The notes beneath the pieces were generated by a model. That model ran no database searches, had not been told where the DNA came from, and saw only the letters and a program-made list of their open reading frames with translations. A DNA stretch of 64,000 bases. It comes from a virus. Its lineage: Duplodnaviria; Heunggongvirae; Uroviricota; Caudoviricetes. The translations under genes were made by a program, and so were the position numbers. Shown here in pieces: positions 11,877 through 58,380 of this stretch. The stretch lies in the IMG/VR virus record IMGVR_UViG_3300029842_000004, one strand, 5' to 3'. Numbering within the stretch: position 1 is the first letter of the stretch; every line of letters begins with the position of its first letter.

Positions 11877-12254
11877 AATCAACAGTATATGCTCATCTTG
11901 AGAATGATTATAGATTTTATAGACTTCCTCTATTTAGAGCTACGGCTGTAAAATACGGATGGAATAATCCTATAGGGGAAGATAGTGGGAGAGAGAAAAA
12001 AATATAATTCACAGTATTAAGTAGATATATTATGAGCACAAGTAAAGAATACAAGGCGGTAAGAAACTGCATACTAAATGAACTTCACCTTACCAAATAA
12101 GATATAATCAAAAACATAGAACCATTATTGGAAAAGCTTGTAAAAAGGTGCATGCATAATACATACGGAGGAAACAATCAGATAGAAAATTGGATCAGAT
12201 GTATGGTAAATGACGAACTTAAACAAAAAGAAGGCTATGGTTTTGTAAGGAAAA

Positions 12255-12872
12255 TATGTGGGGGGGGTTATAAAAGATCATGTGTTGAATGAGTTGAACA
12301 TAATTGTAAGACCAAAAAATGAAAGATGCGTATGTGAAAATAGAGTACCATCAAGAAAAGATGGTTTGTATCTAATCTACGGAAACGGACACGCTGAGCC
12401 GTTTGCTGGAGAGAATTTCAAAAAGAATGTGCGTTATATCGGATTAAAGCACAAAGACGTATCGTTTGCTATCTCACTGACGGAGCATGATAGCGTACAA
12501 TTGCTTGACGATGATAGCCGTGAAAAATCCGGAAGTGAGACATATTACGAACGTAAATGTGATGCGCTGTTTGACATTGACGGACGCGGCAATACGGAAC
12601 GCCTTGTGGCCAGAAATCCAAAGTTGAAAAATTTGCTGAAAGATGGCGAGTATATACCATCTCTTGGTCAATTAAATTTAATGGCCCATTATATGGACGA
12701 ACTAAACAAAGCATTCGCTTATGTTTCGGCATCTCCCCTCTCCTCGACGTGGTATAGATCCAGTACCGAGAGCAGCCCGAGCGTCGCGTGGTACGTGGAC
12801 TTCTCCATTGGTAGCGCGTACTACAGTAACAAGTACAACAGTAGCAGGGTTCGGGCGGTAATTGATTTTTAA
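12255..12872 (+). CDS. hypothetical protein (about 205 aa) with a G8 tract in codons 2-4
   Basis: ATG at 12255 in frame with track ORF 12258..12872. ATG GTG GGG GGG GTT. GC-rich codon island near the 3' end. Confidence 0.55.
   Translation, partial: YVGGVIKDHVLNELNIIVRPKNERCVCENRVPSRKDGLYLIYGNGHAEPFAGENFKKNVRYIGLKHKDVSFAISLTEHDSVQLLDDDSREKSGSETYYERKCDALFDIDGRGNTERLVARNPKLKNLLKDGEYIPSLGQLNLMAHYMDELNKAFAYVSASPLSSTWYRSSTESSPSVAWYVDFSIGSAYYSNKYNSSRVRAVIDF
12260..12267 (+). repeat. poly-G (G8) homopolymer at the 5' end of a CDS
   Basis: Read directly. G/C runs this long are rare in this AT-rich window. Confidence 0.9.
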
Positions 12873-12883
12873 AAAGGATTACA

Positions 12884-13690
12884 ATGATAACATCGGTAAA
12901 AATAAAAGACAACACAAAAACTCCTTTTGAATATGCTTCTGACATAGAAGCATTTGAAAATGGCAGAGAATTTATTTTCAAGCCAGGAGTGAACGTAATT
13001 ATAGGTAAAAACGGTAGTGGAAAATCAACCTTGCTTAACATCATATCAATGTATGCGTTATGTGAGAAATCCATGTGCTCTGAAATACCGATCGAGGCAC
13101 TGGATTTTCCACCTATATTTGATGATGATGATGATGATGACAAGGTTCTTGATGGGATTGACATATCATCCGATTATGCAGGGAAAGTATTCCGTTTATT
13201 GCCATCGGCGGAGATGAATCGAGATAGTGTATTAAAAAACATCAGCAACTTAGATTTGTATGTGAATAATATTCGAAGATCTTATGGAGAGAAAGTGGTA
13301 TTATCATTGGAATCACTTTTCAATTTAATGTTCGGTCAAAAGGATTATACATTTCCAATACAAGATCTTGTAGAATACAAGAAAAAATCAAATGCGTTTT
13401 GGATTAAAAGAATTGATAACCTGTTGAAGTATTATGAAAGAAACCGCATAACATTAACAGAAAGCAGTTTTGAATACACGGTTCTCATGGATGAGCCAGA
13501 TAGGAATCTTGACATTGACAACATAATGCAAATTTATAATGTATTGTCATTCCATAAACCACAAACACAAATTATAGCCATAGTACACAATCCGGCATTG
13601 ATTTACAAGTTAAGCAAATTAGATTGTGTGAATTTCATAGAGATGACAGAAGGGTATCTTAATAAAACTTGTACATTTGTGTCCAATTGA
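12884..13690 (+). CDS. minimal ABC-type (AAA_21/SMC-like) ATPase, 268 aa
   Basis: Walker A GKNGSGKST. Signature-like SYGEKVVLSL. Walker B/D-loop VLMDEPDRNLD. H-loop IAIVHNP. Acidic DDDDDDD insert. Confidence 0.75.
   Translation: MITSVKIKDNTKTPFEYASDIEAFENGREFIFKPGVNVIIGKNGSGKSTLLNIISMYALCEKSMCSEIPIEALDFPPIFDDDDDDDKVLDGIDISSDYAGKVFRLLPSAEMNRDSVLKNISNLDLYVNNIRRSYGEKVVLSLESLFNLMFGQKDYTFPIQDLVEYKKKSNAFWIKRIDNLLKYYERNRITLTESSFEYTVLMDEPDRNLDIDNIMQIYNVLSFHKPQTQIIAIVHNPALIYKLSKLDCVNFIEMTEGYLNKTCTFVSN
13121..13141 (+). repeat. (GAT)6GAC trinucleotide microsatellite encoding Asp7
   Basis: gatgatgatgatgatgatgac inside the ATPase CDS. Confidence 0.9.
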
Positions 13691-35346: not shown

Positions 35347-36000
35347 TCATATCGTAAAATTAAGTGTTTTTTCTAATATTAGATATTCAGTATGAATTTT
35401 ACTTCCGCCATCATCTATCAAGTCCAAATTAATATAAGCCGTATATGATACATGATGATCACCAGGAGTGAGACGCTTCATTTCTGATAAGAACATAGAA
35501 TTTAAACCTTGGCCAGACCATGATTCTGGATATGGCAAAGGTGTAAAGTCGGCATCTGTACATTTTATAGCCCAAGTAAGATTAGGATCTGCCCTAACTA
35601 TTCTATCATGAGGTCCATCAATTACAAGATCTGGCATCTCATATTGGTAACTATCATAATTAAGGACAATAGGATCACCAAAGTTTATACAGTATATAGC
35701 AGCAGGTGGAGTAAGGCTTGTTATTAAAAAGGTTCTATAAATCCTATTGGTTGTTCTTAGCGTAAACTCATCAGGTGCTATCACACTTACTCTAAATCCA
35801 TAATAAGGAGAGGTTTCTAAAGCAATAGCAAGAACCACCGAATCCTGTTCAAGCAATTCCTTTATCGTATCAACTTGACTATCGATCTCTTGCCTATCTT
35901 CTATTGGAACACCTCCTCGAATATACACAGTATCCAACCTTTTTTTTAGAAGATTGGTATATAAGCTCACCACCATCAGGGATGGTTCCGATAAGTTCAT
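35347..36000 (-). CDS. hypothetical protein (217 aa)
   Basis: ORF. First gene of the minus-strand block at the convergent junction. Poly-G9 lies 13 nt upstream of its ATG. Confidence 0.6.
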   Translation of the reverse strand: MNLSEPSLMVVSLYTNLLKKRLDTVYIRGGVPIEDRQEIDSQVDTIKELLEQDSVVLAIALETSPYYGFRVSVIAPDEFTLRTTNRIYRTFLITSLTPPAAIYCINFGDPIVLNYDSYQYEMPDLVIDGPHDRIVRADPNLTWAIKCTDADFTPLPYPESWSGQGLNSMFLSEMKRLTPGDHHVSYTAYINLDLIDDGGSKIHTEYLILEKTLNFTI

Positions 36001-36013
36001 TGTTTACATAACA

Positions 36014-36022
36014 CCCCCCCCC
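36014..36022 (-). repeat. poly-G (G9 on the coding strand) in the 5' leader of 35347..36000
   Basis: C9 on plus strand. Minus-strand context gtataGGGGGGGGGtgttatgtaaacaATG. Confidence 0.9.
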
Positions 36023-36089
36023 TATACAGTTACTAACTATTTTATACTCATATAGTTTAGCATTATTTTCAAATCTTCTTCTCATAATT

Positions 36090-36800
36090 TCATAAAATTA
36101 ATTCAGTAAAAGGACGGACATAATGATAACTACCCCTTGAACCTGTATCCAAATGATCTCCTTGGATGTTTATATCATAATACCACGAATAGGAAAATTT
36201 TGTATTTCGAGTGGATGTCCACATTCTATTACTCATTATCGTACCTCCTACCATTAAAAGGCATTCGTTTATTTCATTCGCATACAATGATATCAAAAAA
36301 AACTCTCCGGCGCCACCTACATATCCATTTTGACCATTTTTAAATAAATAGCTATTAGCTTTATTAAAAGCGTAATCTGTATTACTGGTATCATATTCAA
36401 GATACGCATTCTGATTTTCACGCCCCCAATAATCCTTTTTAATAGTTCCCATATGAGAACTATCTTGTGCAAATATATTGTCTATTTGTCCATCCTTACC
36501 CCAACGAAATGTGCCAATATATTCGGTGGCTATAACAAAACACACTTTATCTACAAGAGCTATTCCATTGCATAGATCATTGGAATATCCTTTATTAGAC
36601 CAATTTTCTTTTGTATATAATCCTCCATCTACATGTTGGATGTATATGCCTTTATTGATTATAAGCGAGGGATTTACCCCCCCCCCATCCCTATTCGAAA
36701 TCTTCGTCTCATGATTTTTTGTTTGCAAGATAGCAATAATTGACAACATAAAAGAAACCGGTTCCCTATCATCTCTGACTGAGAACCGGTAAGAAAACAA
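36090..36800 (-). CDS. hypothetical protein with N-terminal hydrophobic anchor (236 aa), containing an in-frame poly-G10
   Basis: N-terminal FMLSIIAILQ. The G10 tract encodes DGGGV about 40 codons into the ORF. Confidence 0.55.
   Translation of the reverse strand: MFSYRFSVRDDREPVSFMLSIIAILQTKNHETKISNRDGGGVNPSLIINKGIYIQHVDGGLYTKENWSNKGYSNDLCNGIALVDKVCFVIATEYIGTFRWGKDGQIDNIFAQDSSHMGTIKKDYWGRENQNAYLEYDTSNTDYAFNKANSYLFKNGQNGYVGGAGEFFLISLYANEINECLLMVGGTIMSNRMWTSTRNTKFSYSWYYDINIQGDHLDTGSRGSYHYVRPFTELIL
36677..36686 (-). repeat. poly-G (G10 on the coding strand) inside the CDS
   Basis: C10 on plus strand, read directly. Confidence 0.9.
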
Positions 36801-49087: not shown

Positions 49088-51367
49088 TTACCTGCATTCC
49101 AATTTGTTAAGATCATCCAATTCAGACTTGCTTACGGTCATGTCTTGCGTCAAGCCAGATCTGTTTTGGTATGGAGCGTAATCAGTTTCTACCGTCTTAG
49201 CCTTCTGAGTAGAATCGTATTTCACCTCCGATTCGGTTCCTGTCAGATTTTGGTAGATAGAGCCGGAACTACTCTCGCTTACTTTAGACCATATCTTATT
49301 ACCTACTCTTATAAAATTATCATAAATACCTTCTGCTGTTATAACACCACCTTGCTCTACGATATTAGAACCCGATTTTTCTTTTAACAAATACGGGTGC
49401 CTGGTGTAAAAATAGTGTTCAAAATCATTCCCAGCATACGAAGGGTCATACCTCTCCAAATAAAACAATTCTGATAAAGAAGGGTCGGTACTGGTCATGC
49501 TATAATCAAACAACATCAACCTGTCTTTTCCAGATAAAGATAATTCTATTGATTTCAAAATATCAGGATCATCAGAAATAAGACCCAAAGATGGACCAGG
49601 TTTGAAGTCAAGATACTTATAGGCATTATCATATAATTTTGTTTTATGGAGTTTGTTGTCAAGGTAAGATTGGTATAAATCGAATAAGGATAATGGGTTT
49701 TCGCTATCTTGTTTTTTGTTCATGTATCGACTATACTCCCGATCCACATCCACGTAAGGAACGTCAAGTACCGCCGGGTGTCCAAACGCCATCCTGGTCA
49801 TTATCATGTCCTCTGTGTTCTGAGAATCCATGAACGATCTGACGTATTTTTTAATGGAATCCATGAGCGTATTATTATCTACGTTCCGTACTTTCTCTTT
49901 ATCCAAAACGCCGTTCTTAAAACAAGATTCAGGATATATTTTAGCAGGAAAGTGAGTTAGGTCGTGCTTGGCTAACACTGTTGATATTTGATACATCTCG
50001 TTAAGATCATCTTTGCTGATCCTTTGATATAGATTATCTCCTACCTTAAGCAATGAATGTTTCTCAAATGCCTCTACTGGGTCTATATCGGATTCAGAAT
50101 AAACGATATTCAAATTATCCATATACTCCGGTAATAATCCAAAATAATAATCTGTGCTATCACCAAGAACATCGTCTATAGAAGATGCCAGCGTAGGAGC
50201 ATAATTCACATCATTGTGCCTGGCCACATAAATATCAAGATCCAGCATCAAATTATCTATCTTATTCAAAGATTGTTCTGTGCCATCATAAGTTTCCGAT
50301 GTCCCTATTATATCTATACCAAACCACGTACAAGCCTCTTCTATATCCCATATCATGCTTCTTAAATCAGATTCGGTGTCAGCGTTAGCCCTATTTAAAT
50401 AAGCTGATATACGAGCTCTTAGAAATTCTATTTTACCGGGATTATAATAAGACAGGTCTTGTAGCTTAGATAAAGATCTTTTCTTCCCTTCTACCACATC
50501 ATCACCTTCTATGTTTATTACCGGTATCTTTTCCATAGATGAAAACTCATCAAACATAGATTCAGCAAATTTTTTATCAGAAACAAATTTCTCGACCAGC
50601 TCAGGATACAGGTTCCTCAACGATTCAAAAGCAGATGAAAATTCAGAAAAGTTTTTTATGCCGCCTACTGTTTTGCACATAGCCCAATAAAGCTCAGAAG
50701 GATTATATGGTACTTTTTTACCAAATTGGTTAAACACTCCCTCCTTGTAAACAATAGGACCATACTGATAGTCAATAGACATAAAATAATTATCTTTTTC
50801 CCTATCATGTTCGTTATTGGAATAATCCAATAACTTCCTCATGGATGTCAAAACTTCATTAAGAACAGAAGGGTCAGATAAGATTCTACTTATCTCTGTT
50901 TCATTATACAAGCCTGATCTTCTTAAATTCTGCTCATTCAGTATCAAACTACCATCTACATAAAAATAATGAAGAATGATGTTGGATAATGATGGTGCCG
51001 TATAAACACCATAGGTAGATAAAAGAAAATCTCTTACATCCTTAACATCCTGATCCGTTAGAGGATCGGCAAAATAAGTTTGACGCTTCATATACGACAG
51101 CACGTCTTCTAAAAGAGGTTCACCATTGGAATCGGTATTAAACATCTCCCCTGGAGCCGGGTTATTCCAATGACCGTAATACGACAAAAAACCAGGAGTG
51201 TAAGCCTTAGCCCATACATGAAGAGCCCGCTCACTGTTTCCTAATAATTTTAAGGCACTTTCGTAAAGAACGGAAGACTCCCCGTTAGGAGCCTCAACCC
51301 GTTCTATTTTATTTTCCTTCTTTTCTATCTGACATTTGACACCCATAGTGATAAATATTTTAGACAA
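49088..51367 (-). CDS. large structural-module protein (759 aa)
   Basis: Uninterrupted ORF. Confidence 0.75.
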   Translation of the reverse strand: MSKIFITMGVKCQIEKKENKIERVEAPNGESSVLYESALKLLGNSERALHVWAKAYTPGFLSYYGHWNNPAPGEMFNTDSNGEPLLEDVLSYMKRQTYFADPLTDQDVKDVRDFLLSTYGVYTAPSLSNIILHYFYVDGSLILNEQNLRRSGLYNETEISRILSDPSVLNEVLTSMRKLLDYSNNEHDREKDNYFMSIDYQYGPIVYKEGVFNQFGKKVPYNPSELYWAMCKTVGGIKNFSEFSSAFESLRNLYPELVEKFVSDKKFAESMFDEFSSMEKIPVINIEGDDVVEGKKRSLSKLQDLSYYNPGKIEFLRARISAYLNRANADTESDLRSMIWDIEEACTWFGIDIIGTSETYDGTEQSLNKIDNLMLDLDIYVARHNDVNYAPTLASSIDDVLGDSTDYYFGLLPEYMDNLNIVYSESDIDPVEAFEKHSLLKVGDNLYQRISKDDLNEMYQISTVLAKHDLTHFPAKIYPESCFKNGVLDKEKVRNVDNNTLMDSIKKYVRSFMDSQNTEDMIMTRMAFGHPAVLDVPYVDVDREYSRYMNKKQDSENPLSLFDLYQSYLDNKLHKTKLYDNAYKYLDFKPGPSLGLISDDPDILKSIELSLSGKDRLMLFDYSMTSTDPSLSELFYLERYDPSYAGNDFEHYFYTRHPYLLKEKSGSNIVEQGGVITAEGIYDNFIRVGNKIWSKVSESSSGSIYQNLTGTESEVKYDSTQKAKTVETDYAPYQNRSGLTQDMTVSKSELDDLNKLECR

Positions 51368-51387
51368 AGATATTATAAAAATAGAAA

Positions 51388-51970
51388 TTATGAAACTTCT
51401 ATTTCATAATGCGAGGCCTCTGTTTCAACTATCAATCTTCCCTCTCCTTCGAACTCAACACTGTCATTTCCCGGACCAGTAACAAAAGGGAAATCAGATA
51501 CGGATGTTACATAATCTCCAGAACCACCAGAAAAAGACTGACTTTTACTTTGTTTGTAATTGATAGTCAATTGTGTTTTACCTGGCTGAAGAGTTCCAGA
51601 TAAATTTTTAGTATAAGTGGTGGTAGTCGTAATATTCCCATTTTTATAGCAATACATTATAAAAGTAGTAACCGGACTCTTTTTAATATTACTATCTGGA
51701 CCTTCATGATAAGATTCATTTCCTCCAAATATGCTACTAATATGACAATAAGGACCAACTCTTTTATTTGAAGTTTTAGCCTTATTCTCTACTCCCTTCA
51801 AAGATATAGTAACCTTGCTCTTGTATTCAATATCCCTCCAGTTGCAAACTCCTTCACTTACGTTTCCAACAAATCTGTCATCAACATAAACCTCTATATC
51901 CCCCCCCCTGCTGATTGGTCTTCAACTGGTAAGAAACAAGACTTGAGGTATCTTCGTATCTCCTTCTCAT
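51388..51970 (-). pseudogene. gene interrupted by a poly-G9 tract: ATG 51970 ORF stops shortly after the tract; G8 (or G11) would give about 193 aa continuous with the 137-aa ORF 51388..51801
   Basis: Manual translation. ATG AGA AGG...CAG CAG GGG GGG GGA TAT AGA GGT TTA TGT TGA with G9. With G8 the frame runs into MKGVENKAKT... The track ORF begins at TTG. Confidence 0.5.
51900..51908 (-). repeat. poly-G (G9 on the coding strand) at the gene-interrupting position
   Basis: C9 on plus strand, read directly. Confidence 0.9.
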
Positions 51971-51972
51971 AC

Positions 51973-54900
51973 TCAACACTCCTTATTTAACTCATTTATA
52001 GAATCTGAATTATCAGATTTTTTTACAAGATTCTTATTCCTGTCTATCTCTTCCTGACTCATGTTTCTTATCATGTTCTGTATTTCTCTTCCAGATTGTA
52101 ATAAGGAACGTATAAATTCACTGGAACTTATTTTAACTCCAAGATCGGGTTTAGCCCTGAACGCCTCACCGGTGTTGATGTTGTACAAATCATACAAACC
52201 TGAGTTCATGTAGAATTTGTATATCCAGTTTCCACCAGCTTTTTTGTATCCTAATTTGGTTAACTCGACTACACTCATACCAAATTTAATGCCATTACGA
52301 CCCATTATCTTCTCCGGTATAGGTTCTACCTTAGCCGGAACAGATGTATATGCTTCATCACCGCCGTACAGGAAATAAGGGGTTGTCACCCTTGATATGT
52401 GAGTAAGCGGTTCTTCGGATATACGAGGTTCGTCTTTTTCTATTTCTCCTTTTGTAGATCCAGGTAATTCGACATTTCCTTTAACTTCGACATTTGTTCT
52501 GGATTGTCCTTTGCCTTCTCCATCTCCCTTTTTATCGCCATCTTCCTCAGTGCGTACCGCACCGCCTTCTGCACTTCCTTCTTTTCCATCATTTAAAATA
52601 TTATCTGATTCTGACTCTATAGACTCCACAACAGCATCATACTCTGGTATGCCGCTAAGGAAATCTGCTACGTTATTCAAAAACTCTATTTTTTCCTCGT
52701 TTGTCATATCAAGGCTTTCCACGGGCCCCCATATGGCGGGCAAGTTGTTTGATTTTATTACAGTAGAAACATCTTCTATAGTTTGGTTGTCCACCGTAGG
52801 CAAAACTTTAGAAACCAAACTATTGATATCAGATTCCATTTTTTCTACTTCCTCTTTTGTGCCATATTCTTTTAGGGTATCCATGCCATTAACTCTAAGA
52901 GAATAATTCAAAGCCTTGCTTGGAACAAAATTAATATATTTCAAAAAGTTTTTCAACTCTGATATAATTTGTTCGTCAGATCTTGGCCCAACATAATCCT
53001 CGACTACCTGATCTGTTTGAGAACGAAGCCAAGAAACGTATTCTTCTAAAGTCTTACCACCTTTACCGGAAGGAGTGGATATTTTATCACCTACTGTTCC
53101 TTTAGGTTCTAATCCCATTTCCTCCTTAAGGCTTTTAGGATTACCTCTCTCACGAAGAAACCTCAAATCACCTCCTACAATCTTCCTTGCTATAAAATCA
53201 AAAATATTAGCATAAGGCGGCAATCCCTCTTTTTCTATATGAGATTCTATTTCGTTTAACATAAGAGAGAAGTTTTTCCTGGAGGTACGCTTCTTGCCAG
53301 GTAAAGACTGCGCATCTTGTGCCGCAGGAGCCGGCTGAGCTAATGGCGCCGGCTGAGTCTCCCGGGCAGCCCCTTCCTCTGGCATTTCCTCTTCATAAAC
53401 TTCCACGTCTTCCTTAGAAGTAACGGTCTTACCCTCATCAGAGAAAGGAAGATCATCCTCTATAAGTGATTTAGGTCTTGAAGATGATTTACCAAACTGG
53501 ATCCTGATCTTAGGAGCAACAAACATCTCACCTTCGAAATCTATTCCAGATTCTACTTCAGACGTCACAATGTCTTTCACGCTCCTACTTCCATCTTCTA
53601 CCCACTTAACAACATCAGGAACTGTAGATAATTCTTCTATAGCCTCACGAGCTTTTCTAAGACCTGAAATAGGATTCAAATACGATACTTGATACGAAGC
53701 CGGATCAAGACCTAACTTGGTTAGATACGCATTAAGATCTTGTATGTCATCTTGACCCATCTGTAGCAATTCAGAATCACCAGATTCAAGCAGCATATCT
53801 ATAAAAGACATCCATTTCTGCCCTTCCTCTGATTCTACAGAACGTAGGCTAACTGGGAAAAGATAATTAAGACCGTTTTTACCTTTGATGACGACTACCG
53901 GAACTCTTACATTTTTGTAATTATTCCCCTTGTCATTTAATATAGAATAAGCAAATGGGAAGCCTGTGTATTTAGATCCGTTCTTAAGCACGACTTTGCC
54001 ATTTAATACATATCCAACATCAGATACTTTTTCAGCACCTTTTTCGGTAATAGGGAGATTTTCTATCTGGCCATATCCTTGACCGTTCACCTTCATGTTA
54101 AACACCGGTCTTCCGGGAAGGGTCTGGGCAACAACATGCGTGCCGACGCCGATGGTAGCCGACCGGCCGGCGTCCTTCTTCCACTTGTTAAAAGCCGTTC
54201 TTCTTATTTTACTTATACCATCTATGCCTCCTGTATCAGCTTTTACAACAGAAACGAATCTGTTCCCACTCATGACCTTGATAACCATATTGGACACCAG
54301 TTTATTCTCAGCAGATTCTATTCTTTTTTTATCGCCGGACTGAACAGCATCATTGTATTCGGCAAAAAGAGACTGATTATAAGTATCATTTACATCTATT
54401 TCGAGATTAACCTTATCTCCTTTTTTCAAAGAAGATAATGCTTCCTGATCTATTTTATCTACCTCATTCTCTCCGAATCCGACACCCGTTCTGTACGGAA
54501 CCAATTCATCTGAATCAAGACGCTTATAAACCAAAGAATAGGAATTACCCACGTCCTGAATAGACACGTCTGTGTAACGGTTAAGAACACGAGCCGATTC
54601 TTTGTCTATAGACCATCTCGCATGATAAGGCAGTTCAATTATAGTAGCCGTTTCTCCACCTATGTTAAGAGAATACCTTTTAGTACCATTAGCGTTCGTT
54701 TCAGAGCTTATTTGAATAGGAACCAATGATTTTATAGAAGATATAAATTTATCGGCTCTAAGACCCGCAATTTCATACCTTTCGTTGCCATCGTTGGATA
54801 TTCTTCTAACCATCAACGTCTCTGGATTTTGGGCACTATCTATGTTAGCTCCAGGCGTATTATCGGATTCATCTAACTCATTTACAAGAGAATCTATATT

Positions 54901-57900
54901 GGTATCATCCTCCCCAAAATTACTTAACGTAGATTCGGAAATACGACCTTTATCAATAATCCTGTTTTGTTCGATATAAGGAAGGAGATCTGTGATGTTT
55001 CCAACCTGGCCAAGATCTTCTATGGTAAATACAGAATCGGCAAGCTTATCTTCGTCAACCTTCTCCCCTTTATCCCGTCTGTTCATTATATCAACATACG
55101 AAGAAATAGCATCATCAAGTTCCTTCCTTTGATCTGGTTCCAAATTGGATTTAGCCATATCAATAATAGCTTTATTATCCTCATACACAGATCGATGTTC
55201 AGTGAGTCTCCTAACTTTATCTGATAAATCTTTTATCATCTTAGCCGGACTATCACCAAGATTTGATATATAATCATCAATATCCTGTTTATACTTTTCA
55301 TATATCTCCTTCTCCCTTGGAGATAAAAGATCTTGATTACCTGTATATATCTTATCTACGATACGTTCTTTAACCTCTATAGGTGCAGACAAAAGATCTT
55401 CCATTGCCGACTCATAATCAAAATCAGACAATATATCTTCTTTCGGCTTCTGAGTTATACCATCGTTTAGATGACCAAATACTTTCATGGTAAATGCTTC
55501 ATCTGAATTTATTTCTCCATTATTCAGAAGCTCATCTATTTTTTCATCCAAACTGATATTATTACCCTCTGTCTGGTAAAAACGATCACTTTCTATAGAT
55601 TTAGTATTAGAAGATACCATATCATTTAAGAACTTAGAAAATAAAGAAAAATCATGTCTCATGAATTTCTTATCCTGTATGGAGTTCATAAATGACCGTA
55701 AAACCTTATATTGGGTAATGGCTTTCTGGTATTTCACCACCATATTTCTTAAATCCTCTGCTTCTTTCTTCCCTTTATTATTCTCAATATAAGTACTTAA
55801 AGAAGCTACAGAGTCATAAGCTTTCAATATATCTTCAGCAGTTATTGTTTCGGATTTAAACAACTCAAGAGCTAATACTCCAGGATCAAAAGAATAAAAT
55901 ACTTCTTTATAACTACTAAGAAGATCTTCTGACAACCTTCTATATTCCTTATTAAGATTATCGTATTTAATAGTTTTTTGTTTTATAGCCTCTGCTTCGG
56001 TATCATTGCCATCCTCTACTCTTCTCGGAGTTGTAGCCAACCTCTCTATTTCAGCATTCAGATCATTGATCTCATTACGCAATTCCCTTAACTGATTAAC
56101 TGTATCAAAAGCTTGACTTGATAATGAATAAAACGTATTTATATCATCAAACAAATTATTGTCATTTACATAATCAGCAATATCATTTGATGCTTCCATT
56201 GCTATATCTTCTGCATCCAACCCCTTAAACACAGCATTAGCAACATTAGATCGATAAAGATCAGATGAAGTCTCAGCAGTAATAGCCTCAGCAAAAGAAG
56301 AAGCTTTTTTATAATTGGCTAACTTCTTATCAAAATCTTTTATAATATCTTCCTTGTATTTTTTAACAGTTTCTTCATCTACTTTCATTTCAGAAGCCAA
56401 CTCATTTTCGTCAAGGCTTTTAACCATTGACCTGAAATTGTTAGCCGTATCCTCTAATATTCCCATTCTGTCAGATAATTCAAATTTAGAATAATAATCT
56501 GATTCAGGATCATTCATTTGAGCATTAAATTCGGCTAAATTTCGCATAGAGTCTTTTACGGATTGAGAAGTAAAAGCATTATTACTATTAAATTTCTCAA
56601 CATCAGTATTAATAGTACGCTCTTTATTTCTCCTTTCATATAAACCAAAAGCACCATTTCTGGCTCCAAATAAACCACCAATCAGGGCTCCTATGCCAAT
56701 CTCTTTCAATCCTTCTTTGGTTGTAAATTGTTCAGCTATAGCCTTAGAAAAAGAATCAACTATAGAAGACGTAGCATCAAGATACGTCTTATCATATCTT
56801 GATCTAATAAAATCTTCTCCCATGCGCTGAGCAACACCTTGCATGCCTTCCTCCCATACACCTTCAGATATGGGTCTTTTAGATACATTCCAAATAGTAG
56901 CTAAGGATTTCTGGAATAAATTTGCTTTTACCGTCTGTAATCTTCCAGCATCACCCGCTACCTTCTTAGTCCCTAATCCAAACAAATAGCGATCTACAAA
57001 ACTCTTTGATCCCCTATATGTGTTTGATACACCCTTTAATCCAGGTATGTATTTAGAAGCAAAACCAGTGTCTACTCCAAGATATTTTCCCAGAAGAAGA
57101 TAATTGGATAATCCAACTATACCCATATTAGCTAAAAATATGCTGTTTGCCGTATCGGAAATAGAACTCTTAAATTCAGCCATCTCAGACTGATTAGGAT
57201 TCCGACCATACATATTTTTAAAATATTCCTTGTATTTACTTTCAGAGTCTTTCATAAAGGACTGAGCCTCCACGGCAGACTCCCAGCCGGCGCCCACAAA
57301 CGTATTTACTCCTACCTTGGCCATATTGCCTATGGCCCTGCCGTACATCGCTCCTGCCCTATACGCTCCAAAAGCAGATTTTACAGCACTTGCCGCAATC
57401 TTAGACGCCGCCATCTTTCCGGCCACCCTCATCCCTACTTTAGCACCAACAGCTCCAAGACTTGACACACCCATCCCACCTGTAAGGTAGGCAGACAAAA
57501 TAGCTCCTGTCGTAAACGATAGACCATTTCCAATAACATCATTAAAAATAAAATTTGCAGTTCCAAGACTCTGCAAAAATCCCATATCACGTTCTTCTCT
57601 TGTATAATAATGAGGAAGAGAGTGGTTTATTCTTTCATCTATATCATTTATGGTTCGTGTAAAATCATTGTCAAATGCAGAAGATAACGTACCAGTCTTT
57701 ATAAGATTATACGCAGCCGGGATAATACCTACTACTCCTGATACACCATATAATGCTGTTTTTGTGACAAGCTTCCCTATGCCATTAACAGCCTTATTCC
57801 AAGTAGTTTGACTTCTTCCGTAATAATCTTCATTATCCCTTCCTGGCATATAACTTTTAAACCTTGCAAGACCGATGTTCCCATCGGATAAAAAGTCATA

Positions 57901-58380
57901 TGCTTCATCTAACTTAATAGTTCTTCCTTTACCAAATACACCAAAATCAGCAGCAGATGACTGTTGATTACCAGCTATAACCTCACCATAAGACGTTTGT
58001 TTACCAGAATAAGTATTCCTTGATTTATCTTGAATAGATTTTATCATGGAATTTAACTTATTATAAGACTCCTCTTTCTTCTTTCTTGGATCATCTCCAC
58101 CATTCAGAGCCGATTTTAGTCCAGAAAAAGATGTGTCTACATCAAAAGAAGTATCTATTCCGCTAATATCATATCCTTTTTCTGAATCATCATCAGGATT
58201 TATGGCTGATACCGGGGGAGTATATGAACCTACTTTCATCCTCTCCATCTCTCTTTTTGCTCCCTCAATAAGAGAAGATTCTTCTTCATATCGCGTAGGA
58301 ACTCCGGCATTATACCCTCTCAATCCAGTAGATGGTAAGAAACCTGATTTCTCTACCAATGTCTGTTCCTTATTTTCCAT
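51973..58380 (-). CDS. giant protein (2135 aa), probable virion-associated or ejected cargo protein
   Basis: Uninterrupted 6.4-kb ORF. Central coiled-coil region. Pro/Ala-rich linker. Stop overlaps the downstream start. Confidence 0.8.
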   Translation of the reverse strand: MENKEQTLVEKSGFLPSTGLRGYNAGVPTRYEEESSLIEGAKREMERMKVGSYTPPVSAINPDDDSEKGYDISGIDTSFDVDTSFSGLKSALNGGDDPRKKKEESYNKLNSMIKSIQDKSRNTYSGKQTSYGEVIAGNQQSSAADFGVFGKGRTIKLDEAYDFLSDGNIGLARFKSYMPGRDNEDYYGRSQTTWNKAVNGIGKLVTKTALYGVSGVVGIIPAAYNLIKTGTLSSAFDNDFTRTINDIDERINHSLPHYYTREERDMGFLQSLGTANFIFNDVIGNGLSFTTGAILSAYLTGGMGVSSLGAVGAKVGMRVAGKMAASKIAASAVKSAFGAYRAGAMYGRAIGNMAKVGVNTFVGAGWESAVEAQSFMKDSESKYKEYFKNMYGRNPNQSEMAEFKSSISDTANSIFLANMGIVGLSNYLLLGKYLGVDTGFASKYIPGLKGVSNTYRGSKSFVDRYLFGLGTKKVAGDAGRLQTVKANLFQKSLATIWNVSKRPISEGVWEEGMQGVAQRMGEDFIRSRYDKTYLDATSSIVDSFSKAIAEQFTTKEGLKEIGIGALIGGLFGARNGAFGLYERRNKERTINTDVEKFNSNNAFTSQSVKDSMRNLAEFNAQMNDPESDYYSKFELSDRMGILEDTANNFRSMVKSLDENELASEMKVDEETVKKYKEDIIKDFDKKLANYKKASSFAEAITAETSSDLYRSNVANAVFKGLDAEDIAMEASNDIADYVNDNNLFDDINTFYSLSSQAFDTVNQLRELRNEINDLNAEIERLATTPRRVEDGNDTEAEAIKQKTIKYDNLNKEYRRLSEDLLSSYKEVFYSFDPGVLALELFKSETITAEDILKAYDSVASLSTYIENNKGKKEAEDLRNMVVKYQKAITQYKVLRSFMNSIQDKKFMRHDFSLFSKFLNDMVSSNTKSIESDRFYQTEGNNISLDEKIDELLNNGEINSDEAFTMKVFGHLNDGITQKPKEDILSDFDYESAMEDLLSAPIEVKERIVDKIYTGNQDLLSPREKEIYEKYKQDIDDYISNLGDSPAKMIKDLSDKVRRLTEHRSVYEDNKAIIDMAKSNLEPDQRKELDDAISSYVDIMNRRDKGEKVDEDKLADSVFTIEDLGQVGNITDLLPYIEQNRIIDKGRISESTLSNFGEDDTNIDSLVNELDESDNTPGANIDSAQNPETLMVRRISNDGNERYEIAGLRADKFISSIKSLVPIQISSETNANGTKRYSLNIGGETATIIELPYHARWSIDKESARVLNRYTDVSIQDVGNSYSLVYKRLDSDELVPYRTGVGFGENEVDKIDQEALSSLKKGDKVNLEIDVNDTYNQSLFAEYNDAVQSGDKKRIESAENKLVSNMVIKVMSGNRFVSVVKADTGGIDGISKIRRTAFNKWKKDAGRSATIGVGTHVVAQTLPGRPVFNMKVNGQGYGQIENLPITEKGAEKVSDVGYVLNGKVVLKNGSKYTGFPFAYSILNDKGNNYKNVRVPVVVIKGKNGLNYLFPVSLRSVESEEGQKWMSFIDMLLESGDSELLQMGQDDIQDLNAYLTKLGLDPASYQVSYLNPISGLRKAREAIEELSTVPDVVKWVEDGSRSVKDIVTSEVESGIDFEGEMFVAPKIRIQFGKSSSRPKSLIEDDLPFSDEGKTVTSKEDVEVYEEEMPEEGAARETQPAPLAQPAPAAQDAQSLPGKKRTSRKNFSLMLNEIESHIEKEGLPPYANIFDFIARKIVGGDLRFLRERGNPKSLKEEMGLEPKGTVGDKISTPSGKGGKTLEEYVSWLRSQTDQVVEDYVGPRSDEQIISELKNFLKYINFVPSKALNYSLRVNGMDTLKEYGTKEEVEKMESDINSLVSKVLPTVDNQTIEDVSTVIKSNNLPAIWGPVESLDMTNEEKIEFLNNVADFLSGIPEYDAVVESIESESDNILNDGKEGSAEGGAVRTEEDGDKKGDGEGKGQSRTNVEVKGNVELPGSTKGEIEKDEPRISEEPLTHISRVTTPYFLYGGDEAYTSVPAKVEPIPEKIMGRNGIKFGMSVVELTKLGYKKAGGNWIYKFYMNSGLYDLYNINTGEAFRAKPDLGVKISSSEFIRSLLQSGREIQNMIRNMSQEEIDRNKNLVKKSDNSDSINELNKEC

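What the first reader, a model, noticed from the sequence alone, without database searches (positions are those of the whole stretch)
51880..51972. G9 tract splits a roughly 193-aa gene between two giant cargo-like genes (OFF-state or indel)
Manual translation shows the ATG at 51970, which overlaps the stop of the 2135-aa gene. From there the frame runs through G9 into a stop. With G8 or G11 it continues seamlessly into the 137-aa ORF (MRRRYEDTSSLVSYQLKTNQQGGDIEVYVDDRFVGNVSEGV...KGVENKAKT...). The locus is either a phase-variable structural or accessory gene caught OFF, or a homopolymer sequencing error.
Basis: seen in the sequence. Interest (0 to 1): 0.7.

Follow-up and report, generated by a model that had tools for sequence, protein, structure and literature searches.

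The report
Poly-G on/off switch in crAss-like phage
A run of nine Gs has switched off a small virion-module gene in a human-gut crAss-like phage; near-identical phage genomes carry eight Gs and an intact gene, so this is most likely a reversible slippage switch of a kind already known in Campylobacter phages.

Summary
On the minus strand an ATG at 51970 opens a frame that runs into a G9 tract (51900-51908) and stops after 29 codons. G8 or G11 gives an intact 193- or 194-aa gene ending at 51388.

The window is from an epsilon crAss-like phage, about 93% identical to crAssE-Sib. About 75 relatives carry an intact orthologue with only G4 or G5 at this site. Three assemblies that match the window with 0-1 substitutions over 3.5-12.4 kb carry G8, the intact gene. 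The window's contig and three similar contigs carry the split form. Another lineage has G6, also out of frame.

All three genes in the window that start with MRRR[FY] carry a 5' G9-G10 tract, and all three are off. In relatives these paralogous tracts vary from G4 to G11 between genomes with identical flanks, and about half or more are out of frame. Other MRRR-leader gene families in this phage group carry similar tracts.

Best reading: a slipped-strand poly-G contingency locus caught in the OFF state. This mechanism is known from Campylobacter Fletchervirus phages, but I found no report of it in crAss-like phages. A homopolymer miscall of G8 as G9 cannot be excluded without reads. The protein's function is not established; an all-beta fold and its genomic context hint at a virion adhesin.

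The parts
51900..51908 (-). Poly-G tract, G9 in this genome. It lies at codons 21-24 of the gene, and this length puts the gene out of frame (OFF).
   Evidence: Relatives carry G4AA (56), G5A (17), G6 (1 shown plus 2 unseen), G8 (3) and G9 (the window's contig plus 3 unseen).
51388..51970 (-). The complete small gene: 193 aa at G8, 194 aa at G11. It has an MRRRY N-terminus and an AAGGAG ribosome-binding site 8 nt upstream of the ATG. As written it yields a 29-aa peptide that stops at 51883-51881.
   Evidence: The intact 192-aa orthologue in crAssE-Sib is WOZ57302.1. An intact 193-aa gene is called in ERZ918321, ERZ27305861 and ERZ28638724.
51973..58380 (-). Upstream 2135-aa gene, annotated 'structural protein' in crAssE-Sib. 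Its stop lies 2 nt before the small gene's ATG, so the two are probably co-transcribed.
   Evidence: phrog_32390, function unknown. No match to solved structures by sequence.
49088..51346 (-). Downstream 752-aa gene of unknown function.
   Evidence: Gene calls. No Pfam or PHROG match.
36090..36712 (-). Paralogue-type gene T3, starting MRRRF. It would be about 206 aa at G8 or G11. Its G10 tract at 36677-36686 stops it after 12 codons (OFF).
   Evidence: In relatives the tract is G5 in 59, G6 in 9, G8 in 4, G9 in 3 and G4 in 1 of 76 scored, plus one G10 allele in L099 (ATAGGGGGGGGGG, outside the scoring pattern). Genomes with identical flanks differ in tract length.
35347..36085 (-). Paralogue T2, starting MRRRF, 245 aa when intact. 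Its N-terminal domain resembles that of the 193-aa protein. The G9 tract at 36014-36022 is in frame here, but an A8 run at 35940-35947 shifts the frame (OFF). Relatives have AAAAAAC at that position.
   Evidence: Across IMG/VR the main (MRRRFENN) subfamily of this gene shows G10 in frame 21 times, G9 out of frame 21 times and G8 out of frame 15 times.
12260..12267 (+). A fourth G tract, G8. It splits a gene of about 280 aa (ATG at 12032; DUF3988 protein in crAssE-Sib). That gene also carries a GAA-to-TAA nonsense change at 12098-12100, so it is a pseudogene in this strain and not a clean switch.
   Evidence: The closest relatives have GGGGAGG at this position.

Best explanation
The G9 tract is a hypermutable poly-G contingency locus in the 5' end of a small accessory gene of an epsilon crAss-like phage, seen here in the OFF state. 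Strand slippage during phage DNA replication adds or removes Gs. At G5, G8 or G11 the full 192-194-aa protein is made. At G6, G9 or G10 translation stops after about 29 codons. The tract encodes glycines in a predicted beta-hairpin turn, so in-frame length changes add or remove only a Gly. The phage population therefore holds a mix of particles with and without this protein.

The gene belongs to a set of small genes that share an MRRR[FY] leader and a 5' G tract (or C tract) and that follow giant virion-module genes. Switching them independently would give combinatorial virion variants.

What is shown: the tract and the frame logic; the intact gene in relatives; the G8/G9 polymorphism among near-identical genomes; and tract-length variation at the paralogous sites. 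What is inferred: that the change is reversible, that it happens within one population, that the protein is a virion adhesin or receptor-binding accessory, and that switching is adaptive.
For: 1. Frame logic. G8 or G11 restores a 193- or 194-aa ORF.

2. Conservation. The orthologue is intact in crAssE-Sib and in about 75 IMG/VR, ENA and Logan relatives.

3. Tract change on an otherwise unchanged background. ERZ918321 (run ERR912129) matches the window over 12,408 bp with no substitutions, apart from G8 in place of G9 and a 2-bp TA indel. ERZ27305861 and ERZ28638724 have G8 with one substitution in 3.5 kb. Four contigs carry the 137-aa OFF call. A separate lineage has G6, which is also OFF.

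4. The downstream frame shows no decay. It is identical to the ON allele.

5. All three MRRR-start genes in the window carry a G9-G10 tract within their first 25 codons.

6. Paralogous tracts vary on identical backgrounds. At T3, 20 of 42 genome pairs with at most 2 mismatches in 1200 bp of flank differ in tract length, for example G5, G6 and G8, or G4, G5 and G9, with no flank mismatches. At T2, G8, G9 and G10 are spread across relatives with ON and OFF roughly equal. Alleles with an interrupted tract also exist.

7. The design recurs in distant contigs (L259, L260) and in two further MRRRF families in IMG/VR. One is a 371-aa family with G8-G11. The other is a 133-aa family with C8-C10.

8. 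A general homopolymer error problem is unlikely. The eight largest ORFs (24.9 kb) contain 30 runs of 6 or more bases and no frameshift. T2, T3 and the A8 run read the same in the window and in both assemblies of ERR912129, by ENA and by Logan.

9. The AlphaFold2 model (pLDDT 88.7) places the tract residues in a turn between strands 11-17 and 22-28.
Against: No reads were available, so heterogeneity within one sample is not shown. A G8/G9 miscall by one assembler remains possible. I could not establish whether ERZ27256539 and ERR912129 are different samples.

At this site the long tract occurs in one strain cluster only. All other relatives have G4, G5 or G6, so this particular switch is young rather than conserved.

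The same strain also has frameshifts at short A runs (A8 in T2, A6 at about 14145). Its G8-bearing gene at 12260 has a second lesion, a nonsense codon. Some of this therefore looks like ordinary decay of dispensable genes.

The gene is also knocked out by CAG-to-TAG changes in three relatives (L030, L033, L160). That fits recurrent loss as well as it fits switching.

Confidence: 0.72

Rival explanations
1. Homopolymer sequencing or assembly error. The true tract is G8 and the gene is intact in this genome; the extra G is a consensus miscall.
For: G8 and G9 differ by one base in a long homopolymer, and near-identical genomes were assembled with either length. Reads were not available.
Against: Four contigs carry the 137-aa OFF call and three carry the ON call. 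The other tracts (G10, G9, A8) read the same in the window and in both the ENA and Logan assemblies of run ERR912129. The window has 30 homopolymers of 6 or more bases in 24.9 kb of large ORFs and none is broken. Out-of-frame lengths that are easy to sequence, such as G6 and G4, occur at the homologous sites in many relatives. An error also cannot explain the growth from G5 to G8.
Confidence: 0.13
2. Irreversible pseudogenisation. The gene is dispensable and is simply decaying in this strain. The tract is a mutational accident, not a maintained switch.
For: All three MRRR genes are off in this strain, one of them through an A8 run. The G8-bearing gene at 12260 also has a nonsense codon. A 127-aa gene is truncated by an A5-to-A6 change. 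Three relatives carry amber codons in the orthologue.
Against: The tract is the only lesion in the 193-aa gene, and the remaining 169 codons are identical to the ON allele. ON and OFF alleles coexist on the same background. Decay does not need growth from G5 to G8/G9, whereas growth through an in-frame G8 fits the building of a tract. Long tracts are conserved at T2 and in the 371-aa family across many genomes with mixed ON and OFF states.
Confidence: 0.12
3. Programmed recoding. The G9 allele is still expressed, because transcriptional slippage or +1 ribosomal frameshifting on the G run yields some full-length protein. G9 would then be a dimmer setting rather than fully off.
For: Long homopolymers can cause RNA polymerase slippage; this rests on general knowledge and was not tested here. 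The downstream frame is intact.
Against: Relatives encode the protein in a single frame with no slippery tract (G4AA or G5A). Observed tract lengths fall in all three frames. A fixed frame offset is therefore not conserved, as programmed frameshifting would require. The zero-frame product would be a 29-aa peptide that is not conserved.
Confidence: 0.03

Closest known systems
Hypermutable poly-G tracts in receptor-binding protein genes of Campylobacter Fletchervirus phages (Sorensen et al., Cell Rep 2021, pmid 34107245; as summarised in bioRxiv 10.1101/2025.10.21.683753 and PMC12823448)
   Same: A lytic-type phage. G tracts of 7-11 lie inside several virion-associated genes. Tract length sets the reading frame ON or OFF, which creates subpopulations. 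The predicted hosts, like Campylobacter, have phase-variable surface structures.
   Different: The phage lineage is different (epsilon crAss-like, predicted Bacteroidia hosts) and the proteins are unrelated. Here the tracts sit right after a shared MRRR[FY] leader in a family of small genes. Receptor binding and any phenotype are not shown. At this particular gene the tract is strain-specific and recently expanded from G5.
Phage contingency loci in T2 and T4 (Gomez, Barrick & Waters, bioRxiv 2025, 10.1101/2025.10.21.683753)
   Same: Homopolymer repeats in phage coding sequences undergo reversible frameshifts by polymerase slippage, which is interpreted as bet-hedging.
   Different: In that study the repeats are mostly short A/T or mixed runs of 6 or more bases, spread over all gene classes and depleted in tail-fibre genes. 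Here long G tracts are concentrated in one gene family in the virion module.
Bacterial simple-sequence contingency loci (Campylobacter, Haemophilus, Neisseria poly-G/poly-C tracts; review PMC11868660)
   Same: 5'-proximal homopolymer, frame switching, many independent loci per genome, and a run-length spectrum enriched at 8-10.
   Different: Here they are carried by a virus, not a cell. Switching rates and dependence on mismatch repair are unknown.
Diversity-generating retroelements of crAss-like and Bacteroides phages (crAssE-Sib DGR, PMC11054128; Hankyphage)
   Same: Both are diversification devices aimed at putative receptor-binding genes in the same phage group. One MRRRFF-leader family with a poly-G tract (371 aa) has a C-terminal region about 35% identical to Hankyphage DGR variable proteins.
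   Different: A DGR rewrites codons through reverse transcription. The tract only turns a gene on or off. The 193-aa gene shows no repeat pair of the template/variable kind.

Membership tests
Phage poly-G contingency locus (Fletchervirus type) | Homopolymeric G tract of about 7 or more inside a coding sequence | tested here: met
   G9 at 51900-51908, at codons 21-24. The window holds four tracts of G8-G10 against 0.65 expected G8 matches.
Phage poly-G contingency locus (Fletchervirus type) | Tract length differs among otherwise near-identical genomes | tested here: met
   G8 versus G9 with 0-1 substitutions over 3.5-12.4 kb. At the paralogous T3 site, G4, G5, G6, G8 and G9 occur with no flank mismatches.
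Phage poly-G contingency locus (Fletchervirus type) | Length heterogeneity within one phage population, and reversibility | not testable with these tools
   No read data and no passage experiment were available.
Phage poly-G contingency locus (Fletchervirus type) | Length change toggles between a conserved full-length ORF and early termination | tested here: met
   G5, G8 and G11 give 192-194 aa. G6 and G9 give about 29 aa. The full ORF is conserved in about 75 relatives.
Phage poly-G contingency locus (Fletchervirus type) | The gene encodes a receptor-binding or virion surface protein, and switching changes host range | tested here: inconclusive
Programmed ribosomal frameshift site | A slippery site and a fixed frame offset conserved in relatives, with two functional products | tested here: not met
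   Relatives have a single-frame gene with G4AA or G5A. Tract lengths fall in all three frames.
Homopolymer sequencing artefact | Indels scattered over homopolymers in general and not reproducible between assemblies | tested here: not met
   The large ORFs are intact despite 30 runs of 6 or more bases. The T2, T3 and A8 runs are identical in the window and in the ENA and Logan assemblies of run ERR912129. For the single G8-versus-G9 call at this site the test remains open without reads.
Alternative genetic code (TAG read as Gln) explaining the apparent stops | ORFs extend when TAG is read as sense, or a suppressor tRNA is present | tested here: not met
   Reading TAG as sense hardly changes the ORF map. 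The window has no tRNA genes. The stops after the tract are TGA TGA.

The most novel reading that the evidence does not exclude
Epsilon crAss-like phages may carry a dedicated, modular phase-variation system. A short conserved leader (ATG-AGA-MGN-MGN-TWY, encoding MRRR[FY]) followed within about 10-25 codons by a G tract (or C tract) would act as a portable on/off cassette. It is fused to at least five unrelated families of small genes: 133, 193, 205, 245 and 371 aa. Some of these, or related MRRR-leader genes in distant contigs, have lectin-like, Laminin-G or DGR-target-like domains. Independent switching would give each phage population a combinatorial set of virion surface variants, matched against the phase-variable capsules of Bacteroidia hosts. 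The growth of G5 runs to G8-G10 on otherwise identical backgrounds would point to an unusually slippage-prone replication of G runs in this phage group.
Probability: 0.35. Interest if true: 0.75.

Novelty: new member of a known kind. Interest (0 to 1): 0.55.

Why it matters
CrAss-like phages are among the most abundant viruses of the human gut, and how they persist alongside Bacteroidia hosts with phase-variable capsules is still debated. A set of slippage switches on small virion-module genes would give these phages their own bet-hedging device, alongside the DGR already described in this group. That could help explain their stable coexistence with the host and the variable host range between strains. 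There is also a practical point: gene callers split or truncate these genes, so annotations and pangenome counts for this abundant phage group are systematically affected. In the searches I ran, the papers held in the library described poly-G switching only in Campylobacter phages, with brief mentions for BPP-1 and PB1-like phages, and none described it in crAss-like phages.

Tried and rejected
- TAG-as-Gln recoding. I considered it because two relatives have TAG where others have CAG, and rejected it. ORFs do not extend under that code, there is no tRNA, and the giant neighbouring genes are intact under the standard code in those contigs.
- Pattern scans for a tract of G6 or longer at this exact site. 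IMG/VR and JGI metagenome contigs both gave no hits. The G6, G8 and G9 alleles were found only through exact-protein look-ups in ENA and Logan assemblies.
- Pfam and PHROG searches of the three small proteins gave nothing.
- Sequence searches against solved structures gave nothing.
- Beta-propeller 'hits' in the HMM search (P0061, P0069) were dismissed as low-complexity matches.
- The T3 protein reminded me of DUF1566 / C-type-lectin-like domains. Pfam did not support this even at E = 10, so it stays an untested memory-based lead.
- The C8 scan was meant as a negative control. It instead uncovered another MRRRF family with poly-C tracts, so it is not a clean control.
- I could not list the 'similar places not shown' contigs, and I could not find out which samples lie behind ERZ27256539.

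Full report
**1. The observation**

Reading the minus strand, the 2135-aa ORF ends with TGA at 51975-51973. Two bases later, and 8 nt after an AAGGAG ribosome-binding site, an ATG at 51970 opens MRRRYEDTSSLVSYQLKTNQQ. The frame then enters a run of nine Gs (51908-51900; C9 on the + strand), continues as GGGYRGLC, and meets TGA TGA, with the first stop at 51883-51881. Changing the run in silico to G8 or G11 joins this start to the long open frame that ends at 51388. The products are 193 and 194 aa. G7 and G10 do not restore the frame.

The only slip is that the ATG is adjacent to the upstream stop and does not overlap it.

The tract is not a chance feature. The window is 37.8% GC, and its G/C runs number 103 of length 4, 9 of length 5, none of length 6 or 7, and then one G8, two G9 and one G10. 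GGGGGGGG matches 8 times against 0.65 expected, and none of 100 dinucleotide-preserving shuffles reached 8.

**2. What the sequence is**

The only close GenBank relative is OR575929, about 93% identical in DNA. The collection lists it as 'csAssE-Sib'. It is described in the literature as crAssE-Sib, a 151-kb epsilon crAss-like phage from human stool, in the proposed genus Epsilonunovirus. Hosts predicted from CRISPR spacers are Bacteroides, Parabacteroides and Porphyromonas (PMC11054128).

In crAssE-Sib the gene order is: tail lysozyme, three large 'structural protein' genes, an intact 192-aa hypothetical gene (WOZ57302.1), then a 752-aa gene. The 192-aa gene is the orthologue of the split gene. 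The alignment shows CAGCAGGGGAATATAGAG in crAssE-Sib where the window has CAGCAGGGGGGGGGATATAGAG.

The window matches ENA contig ERZ27256539 k119_12166 (151,222 bp) exactly over 12.4 kb, so that contig is almost certainly its source.

**3. The site in relatives**

I tallied 78 related sequences from IMG/VR, ENA, Logan and GenBank:
- G4AA, reading QQGN: 56
- G5A, reading QQGD: 17, two of which also carry a CAG-to-TAG change just upstream
- G6: 1
- G8: 3
- G9: 1

The gene is intact and conserved in nearly all of them. The closest G5 relatives are 96-97% identical in DNA.

The long tract belongs to one strain cluster, and inside that cluster its length varies:
- Contig ERZ918321 (run ERR912129, project PRJEB9576) matches the window over 12,408 bp with no substitutions. 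It has G8, and the gene caller reports an intact 193-aa protein. The only other difference is a 2-bp TA indel about 2.8 kb away.
- ERZ27305861 and ERZ28638724 (sample SAMEA5814183) also have G8, with a single substitution in 3.5 kb.
- The 137-aa OFF call is on record in four contigs.
- A more distant lineage (Logan ERR6170152, plus two similar contigs) has G6, which is also out of frame.
- An exact-sequence look-up finds the G5 and G8 proteins and the 137-aa fragment in the public collection. It does not find a G11 form.

The tract therefore changes faster than any other position in a 12-kb neighbourhood. In-frame and out-of-frame lengths coexist, and the 169 codons downstream of the tract are untouched in the OFF allele.

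**4. The pattern around it**

The window has exactly three genes that begin with MRRR, and each has a G9-G10 tract within its first 25 codons.
- **T3** (36712-36090). The product MRRRFRIGMGGG stops at once because of a G10 tract at 36677-36686. G8 or G11 would give about 206 aa. CrAssE-Sib has G5 and an intact 205-aa gene.
- **T2** (36085-35347). The G9 tract at 36014-36022 is in frame. The N-terminal domain (…CIGGGCYVNNELIGTIPDGG…) is recognisably similar to that of the 193-aa protein. An A8 run at 35940-35947 then shifts the frame; relatives have AAAAAAC there and a 245-aa product.

All three genes are therefore off in this genome.

In run ERR912129, both the ENA and the Logan assemblies show the same G10, G9 and A8 as the window, with 100% identity over 9.9-11.4 kb. 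Those lengths are reproducible, not assembler noise.

Across relatives the T3 tract is G5 in 59, G6 in 9, G8 in 4, G9 in 3 and G4 in 1 of the 76 scored sequences. One further locus (L099) has a G10 allele that the scoring pattern did not capture. Of 42 genome pairs with at most 2 mismatches in 1200 bp of flank, 20 differ in tract length. With no flank mismatches at all, L074, L106 and L093 carry G5, G6 and G8, and L087, L115 and L118 carry G5, G4 and G9.

The T2 tract is long in every relative that has this gene version. In the main (MRRRFENN) subfamily across IMG/VR the counts are G10 in frame 21 times, G9 out of frame 21 times and G8 out of frame 15 times. Some alleles have the tract broken by a substitution.

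**5. The design beyond this phage**

A profile search of 1.8 billion representative proteins found a small, divergent family of 180-225-aa proteins. They share the MRRR start and an N-terminal motif, VYVDG-x-VG-x-VS-x-G…W…Y…VTVSL.

Two of their contigs were examined:
- L259 holds several MRR(R)F genes, two of which were scored here. One has G8 and is OFF; it would be 199-200 aa at G7 or G10. Another has G9 and is ON at 176 aa.
- L260 has an MRRRFF gene with G8 that is OFF. At G6 or G9 it would give 214-215 aa and would include the stretch called as a Laminin_G_3 protein.

Pattern scans of IMG/VR gave the following:
- An MRRR[FY] start followed by 8-38 nt and then G8: 64 stretches. Forty-eight of them belong to a 371-aa family (MRRRFFNKIGGGG…) with G8-G11 that is mostly out of frame.
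- The same start with a 38-68-nt gap: 86 stretches.
- The same start followed by C8, intended as a control: 12 stretches. Ten of them belong to yet another MRRRF family (133 aa, MRRRFDIGSPPPHK…) with C8-C10.

Nearly all hits lie on 80-155-kb contigs of this phage group. The C-terminal third of the 371-aa family is about 35% identical to the DGR variable proteins of Hankyphage-type Bacteroides phages.

**6. The protein**

Pfam and PHROG find nothing for any of the three small proteins. With the deeper alignment, AlphaFold2 gives a confident all-beta model (mean pLDDT 88.7). The first 8 residues are disordered. The tract-encoded residues (21-23) sit in the turn between strands 11-17 and 22-28, which explains why G5, G8 and G11 are all tolerated.

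Function is therefore inferred from context only. The relevant points are the position directly after giant virion-module genes, the adhesin-like fold, and sister MRRR-leader genes with lectin-type or Laminin-G domains. I propose a virion-associated accessory or adhesin protein that is docked by a shared N-terminal part. My confidence in that part is modest.

**7. Mechanism and rivals**

The best-supported reading is slipped-strand mispairing at a poly-G contingency locus, seen here in the OFF state (confidence about 0.72).

*Sequencing error* (about 0.13). It cannot be excluded for the single G8-versus-G9 call without reads. The following argue against it:
- the other tracts reproduce between assemblies;
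- there are no frameshifts across 30 homopolymers in 24.9 kb of large ORFs;
- several contigs support each state;
- easily sequenced out-of-frame lengths (G4, G6) are frequent at the homologous sites.

*Plain pseudogenisation* (about 0.12). There is real support for it:
- this strain also has frameshifts at A runs (A8 in T2, and A5-to-A6 at about 14145, which truncates a 127-aa gene);
- the G8-bearing gene at 12260-12267 carries an additional nonsense codon at 12098-12100;
- three relatives have amber codons in the orthologue.

However, the 193-aa gene has only the tract lesion. ON and OFF alleles share one background. And the growth from G5 to an in-frame G8 is what building a switch looks like.

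*Programmed frameshifting* (about 0.03). Relatives encode a single-frame gene, and tract lengths occupy all three frames, so no fixed offset is conserved.

**8. Comparison with what is known**

The mechanism matches the hypermutable poly-G tracts in receptor-binding genes of Campylobacter Fletchervirus phages (Sorensen et al. 2021). I know that work here through its summaries in bioRxiv 10.1101/2025.10.21.683753 and PMC12823448. It also matches the more general phage 'contingency loci' reported for T2 and T4 in that preprint.

Full-text searches found no paper linking crAss-like phages with poly-G tracts, homopolymer frameshifts or contingency loci. The crAssE-Sib paper does not use the words 'homopolymer' or 'frameshift'.

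I therefore rate this as a new member of a known kind. A more novel reading is also possible: a portable MRRR-leader-plus-tract switch cassette serving several gene families.

Noticed in passing
window 36677-36686 (minus strand), gene 36090-36712: A G10 tract stops an MRRRF gene after 12 codons. G8 or G11 would give about 206 aa. CrAssE-Sib has G5 and an intact 205-aa gene. Relatives show G4, G5, G6, G8, G9 and G10, often with identical flanks.
   Followed up: yes
window 36014-36022 and 35940-35947 (minus strand), gene 35347-36085: The second MRRRF paralogue has an in-frame G9 but is broken by an A8 run; relatives have AAAAAAC there and a 245-aa product. Its N-terminal domain resembles that of the 193-aa protein.
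   Followed up: yes
window 12032-12872 (+), tract 12260-12267, nonsense codon 12098-12100: A gene of about 280 aa (DUF3988 protein in crAssE-Sib), next to an AAA_23 ATPase gene (12884-13690), carries both a G8 frameshift and a GAA-to-TAA stop. Relatives have GGGGAGG at the tract position. It is a pseudogene in this strain. Relatives encode a Gad2-domain protein (PF26128) nearby.
   Followed up: partly
window about 14145 (+), and about 13794: An A5-to-A6 change truncates a 127-aa gene to 78 aa. A T6-to-T5 change lies where some relatives have a 56-aa gene. Short A/T homopolymer indels in small accessory genes of this strain therefore occur alongside the G tracts.
   Followed up: partly
L030, L033, L160 (orthologues of the 193-aa gene): Three relatives have CAG-to-TAG changes at codons 15, 20 or 21, just before the G run. 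The giant neighbouring gene is intact under the standard code in L160, so there at least the TAG looks like a true knock-out rather than recoding. The phage group encodes a cytosine-5 methyltransferase, so deamination of methylated C at these sites is a possible but untested cause.
   Followed up: partly
IMG/VR loci L261-L324, for example L268 8227-9365; not in the window: A 371-aa MRRRFFNKIGGGG family carries G8-G11 tracts and is mostly out of frame. Its C-terminal third is about 35% identical to DGR variable proteins of Hankyphage-type Bacteroides phages. No reverse transcriptase was seen next to it in L268. It may be a poly-G switch placed on a DGR-target-type lectin gene.
   Followed up: partly
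IMG/VR loci L325-L336: A 133-aa MRRRFDIGSPPPHK family has poly-C tracts (C8-C10) at codons 9-12 and is mostly out of frame. This is the same design with C in place of G.
   Followed up: partly
L160 719-1249; protein P0022: Some relatives have an extra 176-aa MRRRF paralogue inserted between the giant gene and the 193-aa gene. One database protein is a hybrid of that paralogue's N-terminus with the C-terminus of the 193-aa protein, which suggests cassette shuffling by recombination.
   Followed up: no
L161 472-1554, L248 1-1084, L260 1190-2395: IS605 OrfB/TnpB (Cas12f-like) genes are inserted next to these variable genes in several relatives.
   Followed up: no
L039 5922-5931: One relative has a G10 tract in an apparently non-coding stretch about 2.3 kb downstream of the 193-aa gene.
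   Followed up: no
window 51365-51372 (minus strand): TATCTTTG fits the Bacteroides -7 promoter consensus TAnnTTTG (consensus recalled from memory). It lies between the 193-aa gene and the 752-aa gene, which would agree with a Bacteroidia host.
   Followed up: no
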